A DNA stretch of 63,313 nucleotides, filler included, from Actinomycetota bacterium (GTDB taxonomy: Bacteria > Actinomycetota > CADDZG01 > JAHWKV01 > JAOPZY01): assembly GCA_025963875.1 (NCBI GenBank). It is 4 parts of 4 records of this genome, joined end to end, with 100 filler letters (N's around TTAATTAATTAA, not from the genome) between each part and the next. Parts side by side here need not be neighbours in the genome. Positions count along the whole stretch, not along the records: positions 1 to 17,009 come from JAOPZY010000223.1; positions 17,110 to 29,079 come from JAOPZY010000043.1; 2 more parts are not named here. One strand, given 5' to 3'. Made by a program: the position numbers. The stretch's first letter is position 1. Each line of letters starts with the position of its first letter. Shown here piece by piece: positions 15,001 through 27,000 of this stretch.

Positions 15001-18000
15001 TGGATGAGCGTTGCCAAGCGATCCAGGGCGGCCGGCATAGGAGCGTGGATCGTTGCTGTCATCGTCTTGGCGGCCGGTATCATCGGTTTCTTTACTTTCC
15101 TTTTCACTATCGGGCTCGCAATTGTCCCGATCGGGGTCCTGCTCATCTTCGCCTGCACCCGGGCAGCCCCGCTGTCCCATTCCCAAACCGGCGTCGTGTG
15201 ATCGACGTCGTCCAGTCATGACGAGCCCGCCGGATGCGCTCCAAGAGCGGCACCAATAGGTACCCAATTACGGTTGCTTCAGACCCGTCCCCGCCGTCAG
15301 GCGGTCGACCTTGGCGGCCATGATGAAGTCGTTGTGCGTCTGCCCCCGGAGTCGTGGGTCGTGCGTGACGGCGCCGTCCCAGACGACGGATGTACTGCCT
15401 CACCGCCCTGGGCAAGCGCGAGGCAAAGAACGCCGTGGCTGACTTCTACCGGGACATCGGCCGTGCCCCCATTTGGGCGCCCGGTATCGAGACCATCTGA
15501 TGGCCTCGTTCTTTCCGTTCGCCATAGCCGCGGTGGCAGTCTTGGTGGCCGAGCGCTTCGGCGTGAGCCGCCAGTCGGTGCACGATTGAAGTTTGTCGCT
15601 ACAAGGAACGGGGGGGTGGCCGCCCTTGCCGATCAATCCCTCCGTACGCATCTGCGATGGGGGCGCCCGCCGGATCCGCCACGAGCGGGCCCGCCAGGGG
15701 CTCGACCAGTGCGACGGCGCACCAGCCGATCCCATGAAGATCTGGTATCCACGAAAATTCTGTGAGTATGAGTCGACGCTGTACGTCGTTCTGTACTCAA
15801 AGAATGACCCGATGGACGATAACCCGACTCAGGAGGGTTGGTTACGCGTGCCGGGACAGACCGAGGGGTGATGGGCACGGGTAGCATCTTCTTCGTCGAG
15901 TTGGCGGAGTGGGCCGAACAAGAGTCAAAGCGCCTGCTGGCCGGTACGGGCAACCGGTGGCTCCATGTCCAGGGGGTGGTGGGTCTGGCCCGCCAGGTGG
16001 TGGGGATCCTGCCTGAGAACGAGCGGCCAGTGCTCCTGGCAGCTGCGCATTTGCATGACGTGGGTTATGCGGAAGAGCTGGTTCGGTGCGGGGCGCATCA
16101 GCTCGACGGCGCAGAGTTCTTGCGAATGGCCGGCCAGAAACGGTTGGCGTGCATTGTGGCCCATCATTCCGAGGCGAGGTACGAGCTGGAGGCCAGGGGC
16201 TTGGGCTCGGAGCTGGCGGCCTACCAGCGTGAGGAGTCGGCGTTGACAGATGCCCTCACGTACTGCGACCTGCTGACTGGGCCGACGGGCATGCCGACAT
16301 CTTTGAGGGAGCGTGTGGCGGACGTTGAACGGCGCTATGGCGACGAGAGCCTCGTGGTGGATGCGCTCAGAAAGGCTCTGCCGACGTTGCAAGGAGCGGT
16401 GGAATGGACACGACTGCGGCTCGGCGGAGAGACGCAAACCGCTATCGGATGAAGGCGCCGGGCTTGCCCTTCAGGTAGTCCTCGATGCGGAGACGGATCG
16501 ACGGATGCACGTTGAGTCCATCGATCTCGGCTGCGGGGAAGAACTTGACCTGGATGGATTCCCTGCTCGGCCGCAGGTCCCCCCCGACAATCCTGCAGGC
16601 GAAGCAGATCGAGAACTGTTGGCGCACCTCGCCGTCGTTGTAGGCGAAGACGTGGCCCGGGTCGGTGTAGACGCCGACTATCCGTTCTGGTTCCACAGTG
16701 AGTCCGGTCTCCTCCTGCACTTCCCTGGCAATCGCCTGGGCGATGCTCTCGCCGATGTCCATGACCCCTCCGGGCAGCGCCCACCGGCCGTTGTCGCTTC
16801 GGCGCTGGAGCAGGATGCGTCCCTCGTTGTCGGCCACGATCGCAGAAGCGCCAGGCACGAGCGAGTTGGCCTTAGGAGCGTCCGCTTGGTGGTAGTAGTC
16901 GATGCGGGTCATGCCCGGACGTCACTTGTGGCTGCGAGAAGATCTTCGTTTGCCGGTCGGCGAGACTCCTCCCAGATCAGGTCGAACTGATCCAGGAAGT
17001 TGGCAAAGANNNNNNNNNNNNNNNNNNNNNNNNNNNNNNNNNNNNNNNNNNNNTTAATTAATTAANNNNNNNNNNNNNNNNNNNNNNNNNNNNNNNNNNN
17101 NNNNNNNNNACGCCGTCCATGATGTCGGGGTTCCCGGCCTTGCCGAGGGCGGTGATGCGGCCGTCGCGCACGCCGACGTCGGCCTTCACGACCCCCCAGT
17201 GGTCGAGCACGACGGCGTTGGTGATGACGAGGTCGACCGTCGAGAAGGTTGCCTGCCCCATCGACTCCCGGATGACCTTGCCGCCGCCGAAGACCGTCTC
17301 GTCGCCCGCTCCGGCCGGGGAGCAGCGGTCCTCCGTGGGCGAGATCCAGAGGTCGGTGTCGCCGAGGCGCACTCTGTCGCCGACAGTCGGGCCGTACAGT
17401 TCGGCATAGCGGCGGCGGTCGATGTTCGTCATCGTCGCTGGAGGCCCGGGACCACCCGGCGCCCGGCCAGGGCGACGAGGTCGACGTCCTTCGACATGCC
17501 GGGCTCGAAGCGCACCCCGGTCCCGGCGGGGACGTCGAGGCGGAACCCCTGGGCCGCCCCGCGGTCGAAGGCGAGGGCCGCGTTCACGTCGGCGAAGTGG
17601 AAGTGCGACCCCACCTGCACCGGCCGGTCCCCGGTGTTCTCGACCACGAGGTGGCGCCGCTCCCGGCCCGGGTTGAGCTCCATGGAGCCCTCGGCCGCAA
17701 CGACCTCGCCGGGGATCATCGGGGGCTCCCCAGATTCTTTGAGTACAGAACGACGTACAGCGTCGATTCATACTCACAGAATCTCCACGGGTACGCGATC
17801 TTCATGGGATCGGCTGGTGGAGCGTCACGAGCTTCGTGCCGTCGGGGAAGGTCGCCTCGACCTGGACCTCGTGGAGCAGCTCGGGAACGCCCTCCATCAC
17901 GTCCTCGCGGGCGAGCACCGCACGGCCCGCCGACATGAGGTCCGCCACGGTCCGGCCGTCCCGGGCCCCCTCGAGCACGAAGGACGAGAGGAGGGCGGTC

Positions 18001-24000: not shown

Positions 24001-27000
24001 AGCCCGACTCGCCGACGAGGCCGACGATCTCGCCGGGGGCGATGTCGAGCGTCACGCCCCGCAGGGCCTTCACGGCGCCCGGGAAGGTGACGGCCAGGTC
24101 CCGGATGGCCAGGACCGGCGCGCGGACCGCGGGGGCCCGTTCGGCTTCGATCGCTTCCGCCGCCGTGCTCACGCGGCCACGAGCTTGCGGATTGCGGCCA
24201 GGACCTCGTCGCTCGTCCGCCGGGCACCCGTCTGCAGGTACTCCATGGCCTCGAGGGCGGCGGTGTGGGCGCGCAGGTCGGAACCGCCGACGCAGTCCTC
24301 CAGCACGCGCACGTGGTAGTCGCGCTGATGGGCGTCGGCGAACGTGTAGTGCACGCAGACGTTGGTCAGGTTGCCGGCGAGCAGGAGCGTCTGCACGCCG
24401 AGGCCCCGCAGCAGGATGTCGAGGTCGGTGTGGATGAAGCAGGAGTACCGGCGCTTCTGGATGAAGTAGTCGCCGGGCCTGGGGCGCAGCTCGTCGACCA
24501 GGTCGGTGCCGGGATCGCCCTCCAGGCAGTGGACGCCCTCGGCGCCGTCCAGCTCGCGGCCGAAGTCCACGAGGTCCCGGCGGTGGATCTCCTGGAAGAA
24601 GATCACCGGGATACCGGCGCCGTGGCACGCGTCCACGACGGTCACCACCCGGTTGATGCGCTCCTGGTACCCGGCCATGTGGGAGATGCCGGAGGTTTCG
24701 AAGGGCTCGAGGCCCCCCTTCTGCATGTCGATGACAATCAGCGCCGCCCTGCCACCGATCAGCTCCCGCACGCTTCCTCCTTCATCGCCCTGTACATCTC
24801 AAGGGAGGCGGAAAAGCGTGGAGGCCCGGGGCGCACATGCGTGGGCCTCCCGGGCTTTTGTCCCTCCGTGTAGCGGCGCCGTCTTCCCACGGGACCGCTG
24901 GCACCTCTCGGACCAGGCCCCCCGGCTGGCCACAGGATCGTGGCTCCGGGAGCGGAACCCTAGGTGCTCTCAGGCGTAATGTACGTGGCGTTTGTTTCCG
25001 CCGTATTACCTGCCGGTAACGTTGCTGTTGCAGTATGGACCGACCCGCCCCAGACTCCCGACCCGCTTTGCAGGAAGTGGTCGGGACGGAGGGGTTAACC
25101 TCACCGCGTGCAACCCATCCTCACCGCCAAGCCATCCGCCGTCCTGCTCGACTTCTACGGGACGATGGCGCGGGCGACGTCGCGCGGGCCGTTGGCCGGG
25201 GAGCTGTTCGGTCGTCGGGGGTTTGCCTTTGACCAGGAACTGTGGGACCGGCACCGGTGGGACGCCCTCGACGGCCTCGACCACCAGCAGTTCTCCGGCA
25301 CCCGGGAGGACTATGAGGCCTGGGAGGTGGACCGGCTGCGGCGAGCCGCCGAGGCCTGTGGCGTGGGCCTCGACGACGCCGAGGAGCTCATCGCCGAGCT
25401 GTATGCGGCGTCGAAGGACTTCACGGTGTCCGCCTACGAGGAGGTGCCCGCGGTGCTCGAGGAGCTACGGCGACGGGGCGTGGTCCTCGGTGTCTGCTCG
25501 AACTGGGACTGGGATCTCGACCGGGTCCTGGACGAGGCCGGCCTCACGCCACTGATGGACTTCGCCGTGACGTCCGCCAGGGCGGGCGTCCGCAAGCCCC
25601 ATCCCCTCATCTTCGAGCGCGCCCTGGAGCTGGCCGGCGTCGGCCCCGGCGACGCGCTCTTCGTCGGCGACTCGTGGATCGCCGATGTCGAGGGCGCACG
25701 GTCGGCCGGCATCCCACCGGTGCATGTCTGGCGCGGGCCGGAGGAGCCCCCGCCGCTGGTGGACGGGATCTGGCGGATCCCCGACCTGCGGGGCCTGCTC
25801 GACCTGGTCTGACGGCGCCCTTGTGCGCGCGTCCGGCGATCACTGTATGCTCATGCATCATGGCGCATAACTATTCTGCATGCCGGGTGGCGGTCCTGGG
25901 GGCTTCCGGGTTCGCCGGCGGCGAGCTGCTCCGCATCCTCGCCCGGCACCCGGGCATGGAGCTCGTGGCCGCGGGGGCGTCGTCGAAGGTCGGGATGCCG
26001 GTTCGCTCGCTCTATCCGTGGATCTCGTTCGAGGGTTCCTTCGTTGCCGCGGAGGACGCCCTGGCGGCGAGCCCGGACCTCCTGTTCGCGTCGCTGCCGC
26101 ATACCCAGAGCATGGAGCTCCTCGGGGCGTGGGACGGCGGGTACGCCGTGGACCTCGGCGGCGACTTCCGCCTCCGGGACCCGGGCGTCTACCGCGAGTG
26201 GTTCGGGGCAGAGCACTCCCACCCCGACGCCCTGAGTGGCTGGGTCTACGGGCTCACCGAGTGGCGCCGCCCCGAGATCGCCGCAGCCGCACGCGTGGCG
26301 AACCCGGGGTGCTATCCGACTGCCACGATCCTCGCGCTGGCGCCGCTGCTGGCGGCCGGCGCCGTCGCTGCCGAGGGCATCCACATCGACGCCCAGTCCG
26401 GCGTGTCCGGTGCGGGCCGCGCCACGGGCGAGGGCTTCGACTTCGTCTCGGTCAACGAGAACCTGCGCCCCTATGCCGTGACGGGGCACAAGCACATTGC
26501 CGAGATGGAGCAGGAGCTCTCGGCGGCCGCCGGGTCCCCCGTGAGAGTCAGCTTCGTTCCCCATCTGGTGCCGGTGACCCGCGGGCTGCTGGCAACCTGC
26601 AGCGCCCCCCTTACGGGCGTCGCCTCGACCGAGGAGCTCCTGGAGATCTTCCACCACCGGTACAAGGAGGAACCGTTCGTCCGGGTGATGGGCGCCGGCG
26701 AGCTGCCGGCGACGAAGGGGGTCACGGGCACCAACGTCGCCGAGGTGACGGTCAGGGCGGACGCCAGGACCGGCAGGGCGATCGCCTTCTGCGCCATCGA
26801 CAACCTCGGCAAGGGTGCCGCGGGGCAGGCGGTGCAGAACGCCAACCTGATGCTCGGTTTCGACGAGGCGACCGCCCTCGACACCGCGGGCCTGGCTCCA
26901 TGAGCCCGTTCACCGACATCCCCGGGGCCGTCTGCGCCGCCACGGGGTTCCGGGCGGCCGGCGTGGCCGCGGGCCTGAAGCGCTCCGGGGGCCTCGATCT

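What a model noticed while it worked through the whole genome (the two positions that open the first line are those of the whole stretch)
17110..24974. Guanidine riboswitch operon with urease and new hydrolases
A guanidine-I riboswitch (C91:7736-7865, minus) heads a long operon: an uncharacterised isochorismatase-family cysteine hydrolase (g01308), a Dpp/Nik-type ABC importer (g01304-g01307), a metallo-beta-lactamase-fold hydrolase (g01303) and urease ureABC running off the contig; contig C14 starts with ureFGD followed by a guanidine hydrolase GdmH homologue (g00257, 71% to the Synechocystis enzyme). I read this as a single guanidine-induced regulon that takes in a guanidine-yielding compound (guanylurea-like) or nickel, releases guanidine with the cysteine hydrolase/MBL pair, and mineralises it via GdmH and urease. 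New would be riboswitch-controlled urease, and a new hydrolase family and transpor [...]
Evidence so far: rna.tsv: Guanidine-I RF00442, 75.1 bits, at C91:7736-7865(-), 74 nt upstream of g01308; genes g01308..g01299 all lie on the minus strand with gaps of at most 40 nt. Best Swiss-Prot/PDB relatives of g01308 are RutB, biuret hydrolase BiuH and N-carbamoylsarcosine amidase at 33-35%; that guanylurea hydrolase GuuH is of the same family is recalled (the review PMC12186494, passages read, names the enzyme only). PDB relatives of the binding protein g01305 include NikA nickel-binding proteins, E 5e-33. Of 80 loci in other genomes encoding a homologue of g01308 at 53% identity or more, nhmmer found a guanidine-I aptamer in 16, 6 of them directly upstream of the hydrolase gene. 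28 of the 80 keep the [...]
(Added by a program. Inside this text positions count along the whole contig: they may not be those of the stretch shown here. "Call 12" and the like, gene names such as g00115 and contig names such as C1 are that model's own, and its searches are not shown. The text may have been shortened before it was handed on; [...] marks where a part breaks off. The agent that wrote the report below was given it as the finding of a first reader that could run no searches.)

Follow-up and report, generated by a model that had tools for sequence, protein, structure and literature searches.

The report
Guanidine riboswitch operon including urease
A guanidine-sensing RNA switch in a soil actinobacterium heads one long operon with an uptake system, two hydrolases of unknown substrate, urease and, across an assembly gap, guanidinase, so the whole route from guanidine to ammonia appears to be switched on together.

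Summary
A full-length guanidine-I aptamer (75.1 bits, cut-off 63) at 24845-24974(-) is the only one found in this 3.84-Mb genome. It precedes nine minus-strand genes: cysteine hydrolase (iso), fused Dpp/Opp-type ATPase, permease, binding protein, permease, MBL-fold hydrolase, ureA, ureB and ureC, which is cut by the contig end.

The inferred join to contig C14 (ureF'-ureG-ureD-gdmH) is now supported. One metagenome contig carries near-identical copies of both contig ends 1.65 kb apart. A more distant genome has riboswitch, ABC, gdmH, an MBL::iso fusion and ureABCFGD on one contig.

The leader carries a terminator hairpin that uses the aptamer's 3' strand, as in a typical ON switch.

The iso family is tied to guanidine biology. 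The aptamer lies in 15 of 80 homologue loci. Iso is fused to MBL or to a 2OG oxygenase in some proteins. The riboswitch-iso-ABC cassette also precedes nickel-free carboxyguanidine deiminase genes, which argues against a nickel importer.

Iso is not a GuuH/BiuH orthologue (33% identity), so its substrate remains unknown.

Verdict: a new variant of the known guanidinase regulon. Riboswitch-linked urease is not in the papers I read. Transcription is untested.

The parts
24845..24974 (-). Guanidine-I riboswitch aptamer
   Evidence: RF00442, 75.1 bits against a gathering score of 63, full model 1-107. It is the only match in the genome. My own model R1 scores it at 90.1 bits.
24811..24855 (-). Expression platform: a terminator-like hairpin. 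Its 5' arm (GCCCGGGAGGCCC) is the aptamer's 3' strand, its 3' arm is CCCCGGGCCTCC, and ACGCTTTTCC follows.
   Evidence: Read from the sequence and from the folds. The same design, with the aptamer 3' strand in a hairpin followed by a T-rich tract, appears in 7 of 7 iso-proximal leaders folded. The consensus terminator scan did not report it because the T run is only 4.
24769..24822 (-). Second predicted hairpin, pairing CACGCTTTTCC with the Shine-Dalgarno GGAGG (24776-24780) and the GTG start (24769-24771)
   Evidence: Minimum-free-energy and centroid folds of the leader. The z-scores are weak (-1.0 and -1.9), so this is a prediction only.
24169..24771 (-). iso: isochorismatase-family cysteine hydrolase, 200 aa
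   Evidence: PF00857 E 2.6e-45. D15, K106 and C139 are invariant in 21 homologues. Best solved relative is biuret hydrolase 6XJM at 84 bits. The NCBIfam BiuH model scores 89.8 bits against a cut-off of 370.
22337..24172 (-). Fused two-domain ABC ATPase (DppD/F, OppD/F, NikD/E type), 611 aa
   Evidence: Two ABC_tran and two oligo_HPY stretches. Its start overlaps the iso stop by 4 nt.
21471..22337 (-). ABC permease (DppC/NikC type), 288 aa
   Evidence: PF00528. Best NCBIfam models are nickel permeases, all below their cut-offs (Opp2C 243 bits against 300).
19878..21446 (-). Family-5 solute-binding protein, 522 aa
   Evidence: PF00496 E 3.4e-68. The NikA equivalog scores 156 bits against a cut-off of 393. 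Best solved relatives are an unnamed binding protein 5U4O at 150 bits and NikA 4OER at 118 bits.
18883..19878 (-). ABC permease (DppB/NikB type), 331 aa
   Evidence: PF00528 and PF19300. Opp2B scores 245 bits against a cut-off of 350.
18101..18886 (-). MBL-fold hydrolase, AiiA-lactonase-like, 261 aa, with SHLMVDH in place of the HxHxDH motif
   Evidence: PF00753 E 2.9e-14. AiiA structures score about 80 bits. The motif is the same in 10 of 10 window-type metagenome copies and canonical in the other 20 homologues with a readable motif. dN/dS against L006 is 0.21.
17802..18104 (-). ureA (urease gamma subunit), 100 aa
   Evidence: PF00547 E 1.9e-44. NF009712 scores 156.9 bits against a cut-off of 123.
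17429..17719 (-). ureB (urease beta subunit), 96 aa, after an 82-nt gap
   Evidence: PF00699 E 1.9e-40. NF009682 scores 147.2 bits against a cut-off of 129.
17110..17432 (-). ureC (urease alpha subunit), first 107 codons, cut by the contig end. The operon continues on G000 contig C14, outside this window: ureF' 3-407, ureG 400-1008, ureD 1082-1867, gdmH 1795-2910.
   Evidence: PF00449 E 3.6e-43. It is the only ureC match in the genome. The join is supported by L121.

Best explanation
This is a guanidine-induced nitrogen-scavenging operon.

How the switch works. Without guanidine, the aptamer's 3' strand folds into a terminator hairpin, and a second hairpin may mask the ribosome-binding site. 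With guanidine bound, transcription reads on.

What is transcribed. The transcript is about 12 kb:
- a cysteine hydrolase (iso);
- a Dpp/Opp-family ABC importer;
- an MBL-fold hydrolase;
- urease UreABC with UreFGD;
- the nickel guanidinase GdmH.

GdmH turns guanidine into urea plus ammonium, and urease finishes the job.

My preferred reading of the three unknown components. The importer brings in guanidine bound in a small conjugate, such as an acyl-, carbamoyl- or cyclic guanidine. The MBL enzyme and iso release free guanidine from it. That guanidine then both feeds GdmH and keeps the switch on.

Shown: the aptamer, the gene content and order, the tight gene junctions, the contig join in a near relative, guanidinase orthology, and the recurrent link of iso to guanidine riboswitches.

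Inferred: ligand response, co-transcription, the transported compound, and the reactions of iso and MBL.

My odds are about 0.8 for the operon-level reading and about 0.4 for the conjugate-to-guanidine role of importer, iso and MBL.
For: Aptamer and platform:
-.
- The terminator uses the aptamer's 3' strand in 7 of 7 iso-proximal leaders.

Operon structure:
- Six of eight junctions overlap by 1-4 nt.
- The order riboswitch-iso-ABC-MBL-ureABC is contiguous in L117 and continues to ureF, ureG and ureD in L116, L118, L121 and L122.
- L121 bridges the C91 and C14 ends.
- L071 holds all parts, including gdmH, behind one riboswitch.

Guanidinase: GdmH scores 670 bits to the N. inopinata guanidinase 9FEK. 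It has no aptamer of its own, and its start overlaps ureD by 73 nt.

Iso is tied to guanidine biology:
- The aptamer lies in 15 of 80 iso loci.
- These are 12 of 30 loci in the clade that holds the window, against 2 of 49 in the other clade.
- Iso is the first gene after the aptamer in L006, L007, L040, L058, L064, L104 and L117.

Fusions and neighbours:
- Iso is fused to MBL in P0007 (the L071 ORF) and P0011, and to a DIOX_N-type 2OG oxygenase in P0009.
- That type of oxygenase lies in 43 of 80 iso loci.

Precedent for guanidine-yielding enzymes under a guanidine-I switch: MgdH and MgdL in PMC12508155 (abstract and sections 6 and 10 read).

Precedent for a cysteine hydrolase inside an ABC operon that releases guanidine: the pMET-2 guanylurea hydrolase.
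Against: - No expression data: no RNA run is listed for this stretch, and co-transcription over about 12 kb is assumed.
- There is an 82-nt gap before ureB.
- gdmH directly after ureD is seen only on C14 of this genome.
- Iso is only 33% identical to a proven guanylurea hydrolase and lies outside that subfamily, so no substrate can be transferred by homology.
- The window-type MBL lacks one zinc-ligand histidine.
- Thirteen iso loci with the same ABC-iso-binding protein-MBL order have no aptamer (12) or only one on a neighbouring operon (L056). Their promoter-side gene is a TetR-family regulator in the two I scanned, L012 and L056.
- The window genome lacks the oxygenase and the second arginase-family gene that accompany iso elsewhere.
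- Family-5 binding proteins usually bind larger ligands, but that does not say which one.
- The 80 loci were chosen by iso, many are truncated, and relatives are not independent.
Confidence: 0.55

Rival explanations
1. The ABC system imports free guanidine itself, as the functional counterpart of the NitT/TauT-type or APC guanidine importers of known operons. Iso and MBL then act on something else, such as a side product or a second nitrogen compound like a ureide, not on a guanidine precursor.
For: It is the only transporter in the regulon, and known guanidinase and carboxylase operons always carry an importer (PMC12186494 passages). The window's binding protein is only 33-36% identical to those of the riboswitch-free mycobacterial-type modules, while the permeases are 52-56% identical, so its ligand may have changed. 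Binding proteins at 49% or more with visible context (L006, L007, L058, L104) all sit in riboswitch-iso-ABC cassettes. In L081 iso and MBL sit with a NitT-type ABC.
Against: Iso stays glued to the importer in every arrangement and is the first gene after the aptamer in seven loci. Iso is fused to MBL and to a 2OG oxygenase of the class that includes guanidine-forming enzymes. The known ligands of family-5 binding proteins among the solved relatives are peptides, metal chelates, opines and haem.
Confidence: 0.25
2. The ABC system is a Nik-type nickel importer that supplies the two nickel enzymes, urease and GdmH. Iso and MBL are passengers.
For: The best NCBIfam models for both permeases are nickel permeases. 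The first ATPase half passes the NikD cut-off (338.6 bits against 318.7). NikA is among the best named solved relatives (118 bits). Two nickel enzymes lie in the operon.
Against: The binding protein and permeases score far below the nickel equivalog cut-offs (156 against 393, 243 against 300, 245 against 350). The same cassette precedes DUF1989 (carboxyguanidine deiminase family) genes in L104 and L058, and a carboxylase-type gene in L058, none of which need nickel. Of 32 iso loci with this ABC type, 16 hold no arginase-family or urease gene in the stretch held. The genome has a weak NicO-family match elsewhere.
Confidence: 0.08
3. The riboswitch governs only iso, or iso plus the importer. Urease and gdmH are expressed from their own promoters, and their position downstream is a matter of gene order, not regulation.
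For: The unit is very long (about 12 kb, 13 genes). There is an 82-nt gap before ureB and a 24-nt gap before the binding-protein gene. Published guanidine users carry urease outside riboswitch control (PMC11410670 Fig. 1 legend; PMC12186494). There are no expression data.
Against: Iso through ureA are linked by 1-4-nt overlaps apart from one 24-nt gap, and ureB-ureC and ureD-gdmH also overlap. The order is kept in contigs with 72-95% MBL identity. A different order in L071 still places urease behind the same single aptamer. gdmH has no aptamer of its own. No terminator-like site beyond chance lies inside the operon (2 found, shuffles give 1.4).
Confidence: 0.12

Closest known systems
Guanidine-I-controlled guanidinase operons of Synechocystis sp. 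PCC 6803 (gdmH with Ni chaperones and an ABC importer) and Nitrospira inopinata (APC permease plus guanidinase)
   Same: A guanidine-I aptamer heads an operon with an importer and a GdmH-type nickel guanidinase, and urea goes on to urease. The GdmH here scores 670 bits to 9FEK and 587 bits to 7ESR/7OI1. Pathway taken from PMC12186494 and PMC11410670 (passages).
   Different: Here urease structural and accessory genes lie inside the unit, whereas both papers state that urease is not under riboswitch control in the organisms they treat. There is no HypA/HypB-type chaperone gene in the unit: gdmH follows ureFGD, and HypA/HypB lie on another contig. The importer is of the Dpp/Opp family, not NitT/TauT or APC. 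Iso and MBL are added.
Guanidine carboxylase operon of Vreelandella boliviensis with MgdH and MgdL (PMC12508155)
   Same: A guanidine-I operon that carries enzymes turning a guanidine derivative (methylguanidine) into guanidine, so the product induces the operon. A DIOX_N-type 2OG oxygenase also accompanies iso in 43 of 80 loci and is fused to it in P0009.
   Different: The window genome has no such oxygenase. I could not compare the oxygenases with MgdH itself because I hold no MgdH sequence. Iso and MBL are not mentioned in that paper: 0 occurrences of isochorismatase, cysteine hydrolase or lactamase.
Guanylurea hydrolases of Pseudomonas mendocina (GuuH of strain GU; BB_00025 of plasmid pMET-2), isochorismatase-like family
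   Same: Same fold and Asp-Lys-Cys triad. The pMET-2 enzyme is likewise set inside an ABC importer operon (binding protein, deaminase, cysteine hydrolase, permease, ATPase) and releases guanidine (PMC9800807 passages). An iso homologue fused to a CDA-type deaminase exists (P0013).
   Different: Identity is only 33%, 90 bits. The pMET-2 enzyme scores 227 bits to biuret hydrolase against 84 bits for iso, and iso lacks the roughly 13-residue insert of that subfamily. The GuuH sequence of strain GU was not available to me.
AiiA-type N-acyl-homoserine lactonases (MBL fold)
   Same: Best solved relatives over the whole length at about 80 bits. The later metal-ligand motifs (GH, PGH, DAAD, PGHD) are kept.
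   Different: The AiiA equivalog scores 105 bits against a cut-off of 375. The second His of HxHxDH is Met in the window clade. The context is nitrogen catabolism, not quorum quenching.
Nik/Opp-type nickel importers encoded beside urease genes (recalled from general knowledge, not from a call)
   Same: A family-5 ABC importer next to urease, with nickel models as the best NCBIfam hits for the permeases.
   Different: It fails the equivalog cut-offs for the binding protein and permeases. The same cassette is also joined to nickel-independent guanidine enzymes.

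Membership tests
Guanidine-I riboswitch (ykkC, RF00442) | Covariance-model score above Rfam's gathering score over the full aptamer | tested here: met
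   75.1 bits against 63, model positions 1-107 of 107.
Guanidine-I riboswitch (ykkC, RF00442) | Conserved core sequence blocks (CUAGGGUUCCG, GGUCCGAGAG, ACACGG.GGGA.AAAAGCCCGGGAG) | tested here: met
   These columns are invariant in the alignment of 12 aptamers that includes the window's.
Guanidine-I riboswitch (ykkC, RF00442) | Expression platform in which a terminator competes with the aptamer's 3' strand (ON switch) | tested here: met
   A hairpin uses GCCCGGGAG and is followed by a T-rich tract in the window and in six other iso-proximal leaders. This is structure prediction only.
Guanidine-I riboswitch (ykkC, RF00442) | Binds guanidine and switches expression | not testable with these tools
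   Needs in-line probing or a reporter assay.
GdmH-type Ni-dependent guanidinase (arginase family) | Close full-length orthology to the characterised enzymes | tested here: met
   670 bits to 9FEK over residues 7-368 of 371, and 587 bits to 7ESR/7OI1. The next family, proclavaminate amidinohydrolase, scores 177 bits.
GdmH-type Ni-dependent guanidinase (arginase family) | Arginase-family metal-ligand motifs (GGDHS, DxHxD, DxD) | tested here: met
   GGDHS, FDRHVD and SFDVDCLD are visible and aligned with 9FEK. The naming of these motifs is recalled.
GdmH-type Ni-dependent guanidinase (arginase family) | Nickel dependence and specificity for free guanidine | not testable with these tools
   Needs an enzyme assay.
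Urease (UreABC with UreFGD) | All three structural subunits and the accessory proteins are present | tested here: met
   UreA and UreB score above the NCBIfam cut-offs, and the UreC N-terminal domain is found. UreF, UreG and UreD lie on C14. The middle of ureC and the start of ureF are unassembled. No UreE was sought.
Isochorismatase-like cysteine hydrolases (PF00857) | Domain match and the Asp-Lys-Cys catalytic triad | tested here: met
   PF00857 at 155 bits. D15, K106 and C139 are invariant in 21 sequences. The triad assignment rests on alignment to biuret hydrolase and on recalled knowledge.
Biuret / triuret / guanylurea hydrolase subfamily | Equivalog-level similarity to BiuH, or to a proven guanylurea hydrolase | tested here: not met
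   BiuH model 89.8 bits against a cut-off of 370. Identity to the pMET-2 guanylurea hydrolase is 33%, and that enzyme scores 227 bits to BiuH.
AiiA-type lactonase (MBL fold) | HxHxDH zinc motif and an equivalog score | tested here: not met
   The motif is SHLMVDH. AiiA model 105 bits against a cut-off of 375. The fold family PF00753 itself is met.
NikABCDE nickel importer | Equivalog scores for NikA, NikB and NikC | tested here: not met
   NikA 156 bits against 393, NikB 203 against 447, NikC 235 against 358. Only the generic ATPase half passes the NikD cut-off.

The most novel reading that the evidence does not exclude
Iso, with its MBL partner, is a new guanidine-releasing hydrolase system. 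The family-5 ABC importer takes up a natural guanidine conjugate. Candidates from chemistry alone are N-acyl or N-carbamoyl guanidines such as guanylurea-type compounds, or cyclic acylguanidines of the creatinine, glycocyamidine or guanidinohydantoin type. The MBL enzyme opens or trims the conjugate and the cysteine hydrolase frees guanidine. That guanidine induces the operon through the riboswitch and is mineralised by GdmH and urease. This would name a widespread natural source of free guanidine in soil and sea. It would also show urease accessory proteins encoded next to a guanidinase that has no chaperone genes of its own in the operon.
Probability: 0.3. Interest if true: 0.85.

Novelty: new variant of a known kind. 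Interest (0 to 1): 0.66.

Why it matters
- The guanidinase route (guanidine to urea to ammonia) is known. In the organisms studied so far, urease sits outside riboswitch control, and two papers say so. Here the whole route appears wired to one guanidine sensor. That gives a clean natural example of a complete, self-contained guanidine-to-ammonia operon.
- gdmH sits directly behind ureFGD with no Hyp-type chaperone gene beside it. How guanidinases without dedicated chaperones get their nickel is stated as unclear for N. inopinata. This arrangement suggests a test with the urease accessory proteins.
- The natural sources of free guanidine are an open question in the reviews read. A widespread cysteine hydrolase repeatedly sits behind guanidine riboswitches and is fused to an MBL hydrolase or to a 2OG oxygenase. 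It also travels with several different importer families. That makes it a concrete, assayable candidate for an enzyme that feeds guanidine into these pathways.

Tried and rejected
- Complex prediction of iso with MBL, both given as 21-row alignments: no verdict, score 0.00. I do not use it either way.
- Sequencing runs: 20 DNA holders in 16 soil or metagenome studies, and no RNA holder listed. I have no expression data, and read laying was not used.
- Tassoulas et al. 2021 (PMC8208167, the GuuH paper) is not held. GuuH of strain GU could not be compared, so I used the second characterised enzyme on pMET-2 instead.
- The treekit tree run was killed. I repeated it with MAFFT and FastTree, midpoint-rooted. 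I did not read its branch support values, and L049 was dropped because its iso fragment is shorter than 150 aa.
- Consensus promoter and terminator scans found nothing beyond shuffles in the leader, inside the operon or after gdmH. They are tuned to sigma-70 promoters and long T runs, so they say little for this organism.
- Nickel housekeeping in G000: HypA and HypB lie at a contig end on C214, and there is a weak NicO match on C159. This does not decide who loads GdmH or whether another nickel importer exists.
- Guanidine-II and -III models found nothing in G000. Only 150 candidates were scored, the class III control rang nowhere, and the genome is 94.6% complete.
- The ESM Atlas gave only family-level names for iso.
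- L013 (ureG-ureD-MBL-iso with a split binding-protein gene and no ureABC) looked like a clue that UreG and UreD serve the MBL enzyme. The locus appears rearranged or decayed, so I dropped the idea.
- My gene calls for the comparison loci are crude (GC-position scoring) and missed or mis-stranded some genes. Counts therefore rest on phmmer and tblastn of the module proteins against all open frames.
- Literature searches for prior reports: 'guanidine riboswitch' with 'isochorismatase' gave 0 papers. 'ykkC' with 'urease' gave 23 papers, of which I read passages of three (PMC12186494, PMC11410670, PMC12623156). None of what I read places urease, an isochorismatase-family gene or an MBL gene under a guanidine riboswitch. 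Supplementary gene-association tables of the riboswitch papers were not seen.

Full report
**What is in the window.** The 63,313-base window is four contigs of one metagenome-assembled genome (G000: 3.84 Mb, 273 contigs, 94.6% complete) separated by runs of N. The finding lies on contig C91, which is window 17110-29079.

Rfam places a full-length guanidine-I aptamer at 24845-24974 on the minus strand. It scores 75.1 bits against a gathering score of 63, E 1.5e-11. It is the only guanidine-I match in the genome. Models for classes II and III found nothing, with the caveats printed by those searches.

Downstream on the same strand I read nine genes:
- iso: isochorismatase-family cysteine hydrolase, 24771-24169;
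- a fused two-domain ABC ATPase, 24172-22337;
- a permease, 22337-21471;
- a family-5 binding protein, 21446-19878;
- a second permease, 19878-18883;
- an MBL-fold protein, 18886-18101;
- ureA, 18104-17802;
- ureB, 17719-17429;
- the first 107 codons of ureC, 17432-17110, where the contig ends.

Six of the eight junctions overlap by 1-4 nt. The exceptions are a 24-nt gap before the binding-protein gene and an 82-nt gap before ureB. I differ only in small numbers: nine genes rather than ten, and one gap longer than 40 nt.

**The switch.** The aptamer's 3' strand (GCCCGGGAGGCCC) can pair with CCCCGGGCCTCC 15 nt further on, and ACGCTTTTCC follows. A second predicted hairpin pairs CACGCTTTTCC with the Shine-Dalgarno sequence and the GTG start. 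The fold energies are not far from shuffled controls (z -1.0 and -1.9), so this is a reading of the sequence, not a measurement.

The same design appears in all seven iso-proximal leaders I folded: window, L006, L007, L040, L058, L064 and L104. In each, a hairpin uses the conserved aptamer 3' strand and is followed by a T-rich tract. This is the arrangement described for guanidine-I ON switches in PMC12186494 and PMC12508155 (passages and section 6).

**The join to contig C14.** C14 begins with the C-terminal part of ureF, then ureG, ureD and an arginase-family gene. That gene starts at an ATG behind AGAGGAGG, at position 1795, which lies 73 nt inside ureD.
- The genome has a single ureC fragment (C91 end) and a single ureF fragment (C14 start).
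- A scan of public metagenome contigs with the window's MBL protein gave 52 loci, 14 of them with 72-95% identical copies or pieces.
- L117 runs from a 99.8-bit aptamer through iso, the ABC genes, MBL, ureA and ureB to a complete ureC.
- L116, L118 and L121 continue from ureC into ureF and ureG, and L122 reaches ureD.
- L121 matches C91:1-613 at 88% and C14:3-947 at 89.7%, in the same orientation and 1,648 nt apart.

The join is therefore supported by an independent assembly of a near relative, though not by this genome's own reads. gdmH directly after ureD is seen only on C14.

**The guanidinase.** The C14 protein scores 670 bits over nearly its whole length to the Nitrospira inopinata guanidinase (9FEK). 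It scores 587 bits to Synechocystis GdmH (7ESR/7OI1). The next family scores 177 bits. It has no aptamer of its own.

**Relatives of the cysteine hydrolase.** A scan of one genome per species gave 80 loci with iso homologues of 54-90% identity. A covariance model built from 12 aptamers finds guanidine-I in 15 of the 80:
- directly upstream of iso in 5 (L006, L007, L040, L058, L064);
- 5-8 kb upstream on the same strand in 6 (L011, L016, L049, L053, L071, L074);
- heading a neighbouring operon in 4 (L017, L030, L056, L065).

With one aptamer per 3.8 Mb in G000, chance would give well under one hit in 1.3 Mb.

In a midpoint-rooted FastTree of 80 iso sequences, the clade holding the window has 30 loci, 12 of them with the aptamer. 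The other clade has 2 of 49. L049 was left out because its fragment is short. Relatives are not independent, and the loci were chosen by iso.

Gene orders differ while the parts recur:
- L071: riboswitch, binding protein, ATPase, two permeases, gdmH (84%), a single 500-aa ORF with MBL and isochorismatase domains, then ureABCFGD.
- L011 and L049: riboswitch, gdmH (79%), ABC, a second arginase-family gene (36-39% to GdmH), iso, binding protein, and MBL in L011 (L049 ends before it).
- L016, L053 and L074: riboswitch, ABC, the second arginase-family gene, iso, then binding protein and MBL in L016 and L053 (L074 ends at iso).
- L058 and L104: the window's own order (riboswitch, iso, ATPase, permease, binding protein, permease), followed by two DUF1989 genes, and in L058 also by a carboxyltransferase (urea/guanidine carboxylase type).
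- L065 and L040: the riboswitch also heads a glutamine-synthetase-like gene and a creatininase-family gene, plus a C26 amidotransferase in L065.
- L081: iso and MBL sit with a NitT-type ABC, creatininase, a GS-like gene and gdmH (64%), next to a divergent urease cluster.
- Thirteen loci, mostly from mycobacteria, have ABC-iso-binding protein-MBL. Twelve have no aptamer in the stretch held; in L056 an aptamer heads the neighbouring operon. A TetR-family gene lies on the promoter side in L012 and L056, the two I scanned with Pfam.

**Nickel or substrate?** L104 came from an independent search with the window's binding protein in 400 sampled genomes of the phylum. Eight genomes had a homologue. 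With L058, it shows the same cassette joined to genes of the guanidine carboxylase route, which does not use nickel.

Of 32 iso loci with this ABC type, 16 hold no arginase-family or urease gene in the stretch held. The binding protein and permeases score well below NCBIfam's nickel equivalog cut-offs. The best solved relative of the binding protein is an unnamed protein (5U4O, 150 bits), ahead of NikA (118 bits). I therefore rate the nickel-importer reading low (0.08), though it is not excluded.

**What iso and MBL might do.**
- Iso keeps Asp15, Lys106 and Cys139, invariant in 21 homologues, together with long invariant blocks.
- Its best solved relatives are biuret hydrolase, an N-carbamoylsarcosine-amidase-related protein and RutB, at 65-85 bits.
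- The characterised guanylurea hydrolase of plasmid pMET-2 (PMC9800807 passages; gene located) is 33% identical to iso. It belongs with biuret and triuret hydrolases at 190-227 bits.
- Iso is therefore a separate branch of the family, and no substrate can be carried over.
- The context of the pMET-2 enzyme is nevertheless alike: a cysteine hydrolase set inside an ABC importer operon.

Proteins longer than iso that contain it include:
- two MBL fusions (P0007, which is the L071 ORF, and P0011);
- a fusion to a DIOX_N-type 2OG oxygenase (P0009);
- a fusion to a CDA-type deaminase (P0013).

Three more pair it with transporter domains (P0008, P0010, P0016), which may be read-through gene calls.

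The DIOX_N oxygenase lies in 43 of 80 iso loci, and in L017 and L056 it is the first gene behind the aptamer. Its best solved relative is an ethylene/succinate-forming enzyme entry (9OVH, 239 bits). A 2OG dioxygenase of a guanidine-I operon was recently shown to hydroxylate methylguanidine, with a lyase completing the release of guanidine (PMC12508155). This is a precedent for guanidine-yielding enzymes under a guanidine-specific switch. I could not compare sequences with that enzyme.

The window genome lacks the oxygenase, the second arginase-family gene, creatininase, the carboxylase and DUF1989. Its version is the minimal one: importer, iso, MBL, urease and GdmH.

**The MBL protein.** It is AiiA-lactonase-like over its full length, at about 80 bits. 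In the window clade the motif is SHLMVDH, with Met in place of the second His of HxHxDH. This holds in 10 of 10 metagenome copies with 72-95% identity and in L006. The other 20 homologues with a readable motif have SHLH.DH.

The window-type protein is only 35-42% identical to those homologues, whereas iso is 56-67% identical to its counterparts. dN/dS against L006 is 0.21, compared with 0.07-0.16 for the neighbouring genes. It is therefore a conserved variant, not a decaying gene. On a Streptomyces plasmid, iso is followed by two phosphotriesterase-family (lactonase-like) genes and a RidA gene instead of an MBL gene. That hints the partner's job is a ring-opening or ester/amide hydrolysis. This is inference only.

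**Most likely working.**
- Guanidine binds the aptamer and the terminator does not form, so the operon is read.
- The importer brings in guanidine or, as I think somewhat more likely, a small guanidine conjugate.
- MBL and iso free guanidine from it.
- GdmH makes urea and ammonium, and urease makes ammonia and CO2. UreFGD, and possibly HypAB encoded elsewhere, supply nickel.
- Shown: the parts, their order, their conservation and the guanidinase orthology.
- Inferred: every biochemical step of iso, MBL and the importer, and the co-transcription.

**Comparison with what is known, and novelty.** The guanidinase route and its riboswitch control are known. Two papers state that urease is not riboswitch-controlled in the organisms they treat (PMC12186494 passage; PMC11410670 Fig. 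1 legend).
- A search for 'guanidine riboswitch' with 'isochorismatase' found no paper.
- The methylguanidine paper does not mention isochorismatase, cysteine hydrolase, lactamase or urease.
- Of the 23 papers holding 'ykkC' and 'urease', I read passages of only three (PMC12186494, PMC11410670, PMC12623156).
- I did not see the supplementary gene lists of the riboswitch papers.
- Within these limits, the new points are urease inside a guanidine-I unit, gdmH placed behind ureFGD, and iso, MBL and a family-5 ABC as recurrent members of guanidine regulons.

I file it as a new variant of a known kind.

**Limits.** There are no expression data. The comparison loci were selected by iso and many are cut. 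My gene calls there are crude, so counts rest on searches of all open frames. I did not read the support values of the tree. The complex prediction gave no verdict.

Noticed in passing
L056:13106-16789 and L017:219-3426: In two Frankiales-type genomes a guanidine-I aptamer heads a DIOX_N-type 2OG oxygenase. In L056 an HRI1-like protein, a luciferase-like monooxygenase and an FMN reductase follow. The operon lies right beside the ABC-iso-binding protein-MBL module and its TetR-family gene. It may be an oxidative branch of guanidine or methylguanidine metabolism.
   Followed up: partly
P0009 (571 aa), P0013 (351 aa), P0011 (499 aa): Iso homologues of 51-56% identity occur fused to a 2OG oxygenase (P0009), to a CDA-type deaminase (P0013) and to an MBL domain (P0011). 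The deaminase fusion echoes the deaminase next to the guanylurea hydrolase on pMET-2.
   Followed up: partly
L065:12299-20358 and L040:9816-19500: In two Acidimicrobiales genomes, guanidine-I aptamers precede a glutamine-synthetase-like gene, a creatininase-family gene, the family-5 ABC and a second arginase-family gene, plus a C26 amidotransferase in L065. L065 also carries a carboxylase gene and two DUF1989 genes in the divergent direction.
   Followed up: partly
L011, L016, L053, L074, L049, L069, L079 (gene just upstream of iso, e.g. L016:8891-9907): A second arginase-family subfamily (36-39% to GdmH) sits directly before iso. Its best solved relatives are GdmH at 200 bits and then guanidinobutyrase. 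Its substrate is unknown.
   Followed up: partly
L086:12007-15433 (Streptomyces sp. NBC_00564 plasmid): Here iso (52%) follows a family-5 ABC and is followed by two phosphotriesterase-family genes and a RidA gene instead of an MBL gene.
   Followed up: partly
L013:7352-12188: ureG and ureD sit directly before MBL and iso, with no ureABC in the stretch and a binding-protein gene split into two frames. The locus looks rearranged or decayed.
   Followed up: partly
window 17110-17273 (+): Rfam 5_ureB_sRNA (RF02514) scores 47.2 bits against a gathering score of 40, antisense to the ureC coding start and cut by the contig end. It most likely reflects conserved urease coding sequence, not an sRNA.
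   Followed up: no
window 25108-28084 (+): Beyond the 5' end of the riboswitch, on the opposite strand, lie a HAD-family hydrolase, a semialdehyde-dehydrogenase (ArgC-like) gene and an ArgJ gene. Arginine-biosynthesis genes therefore lie next to the guanidine operon.
   Followed up: no
window 11988-12060 (+): A tRNA gene on contig C89, 52.3 bits.
   Followed up: no
G000:C214:47166-48186: HypA and HypB/CobW-family genes lie at the end of another contig, far from gdmH.
   Followed up: no
window 17720-17801 (-): There is an 82-nt non-coding gap between ureA and ureB. Relatives have a gap of about 100 nt (L118: ureA ends at 6483, ureB starts at 6587). Its role is not examined.
   Followed up: no
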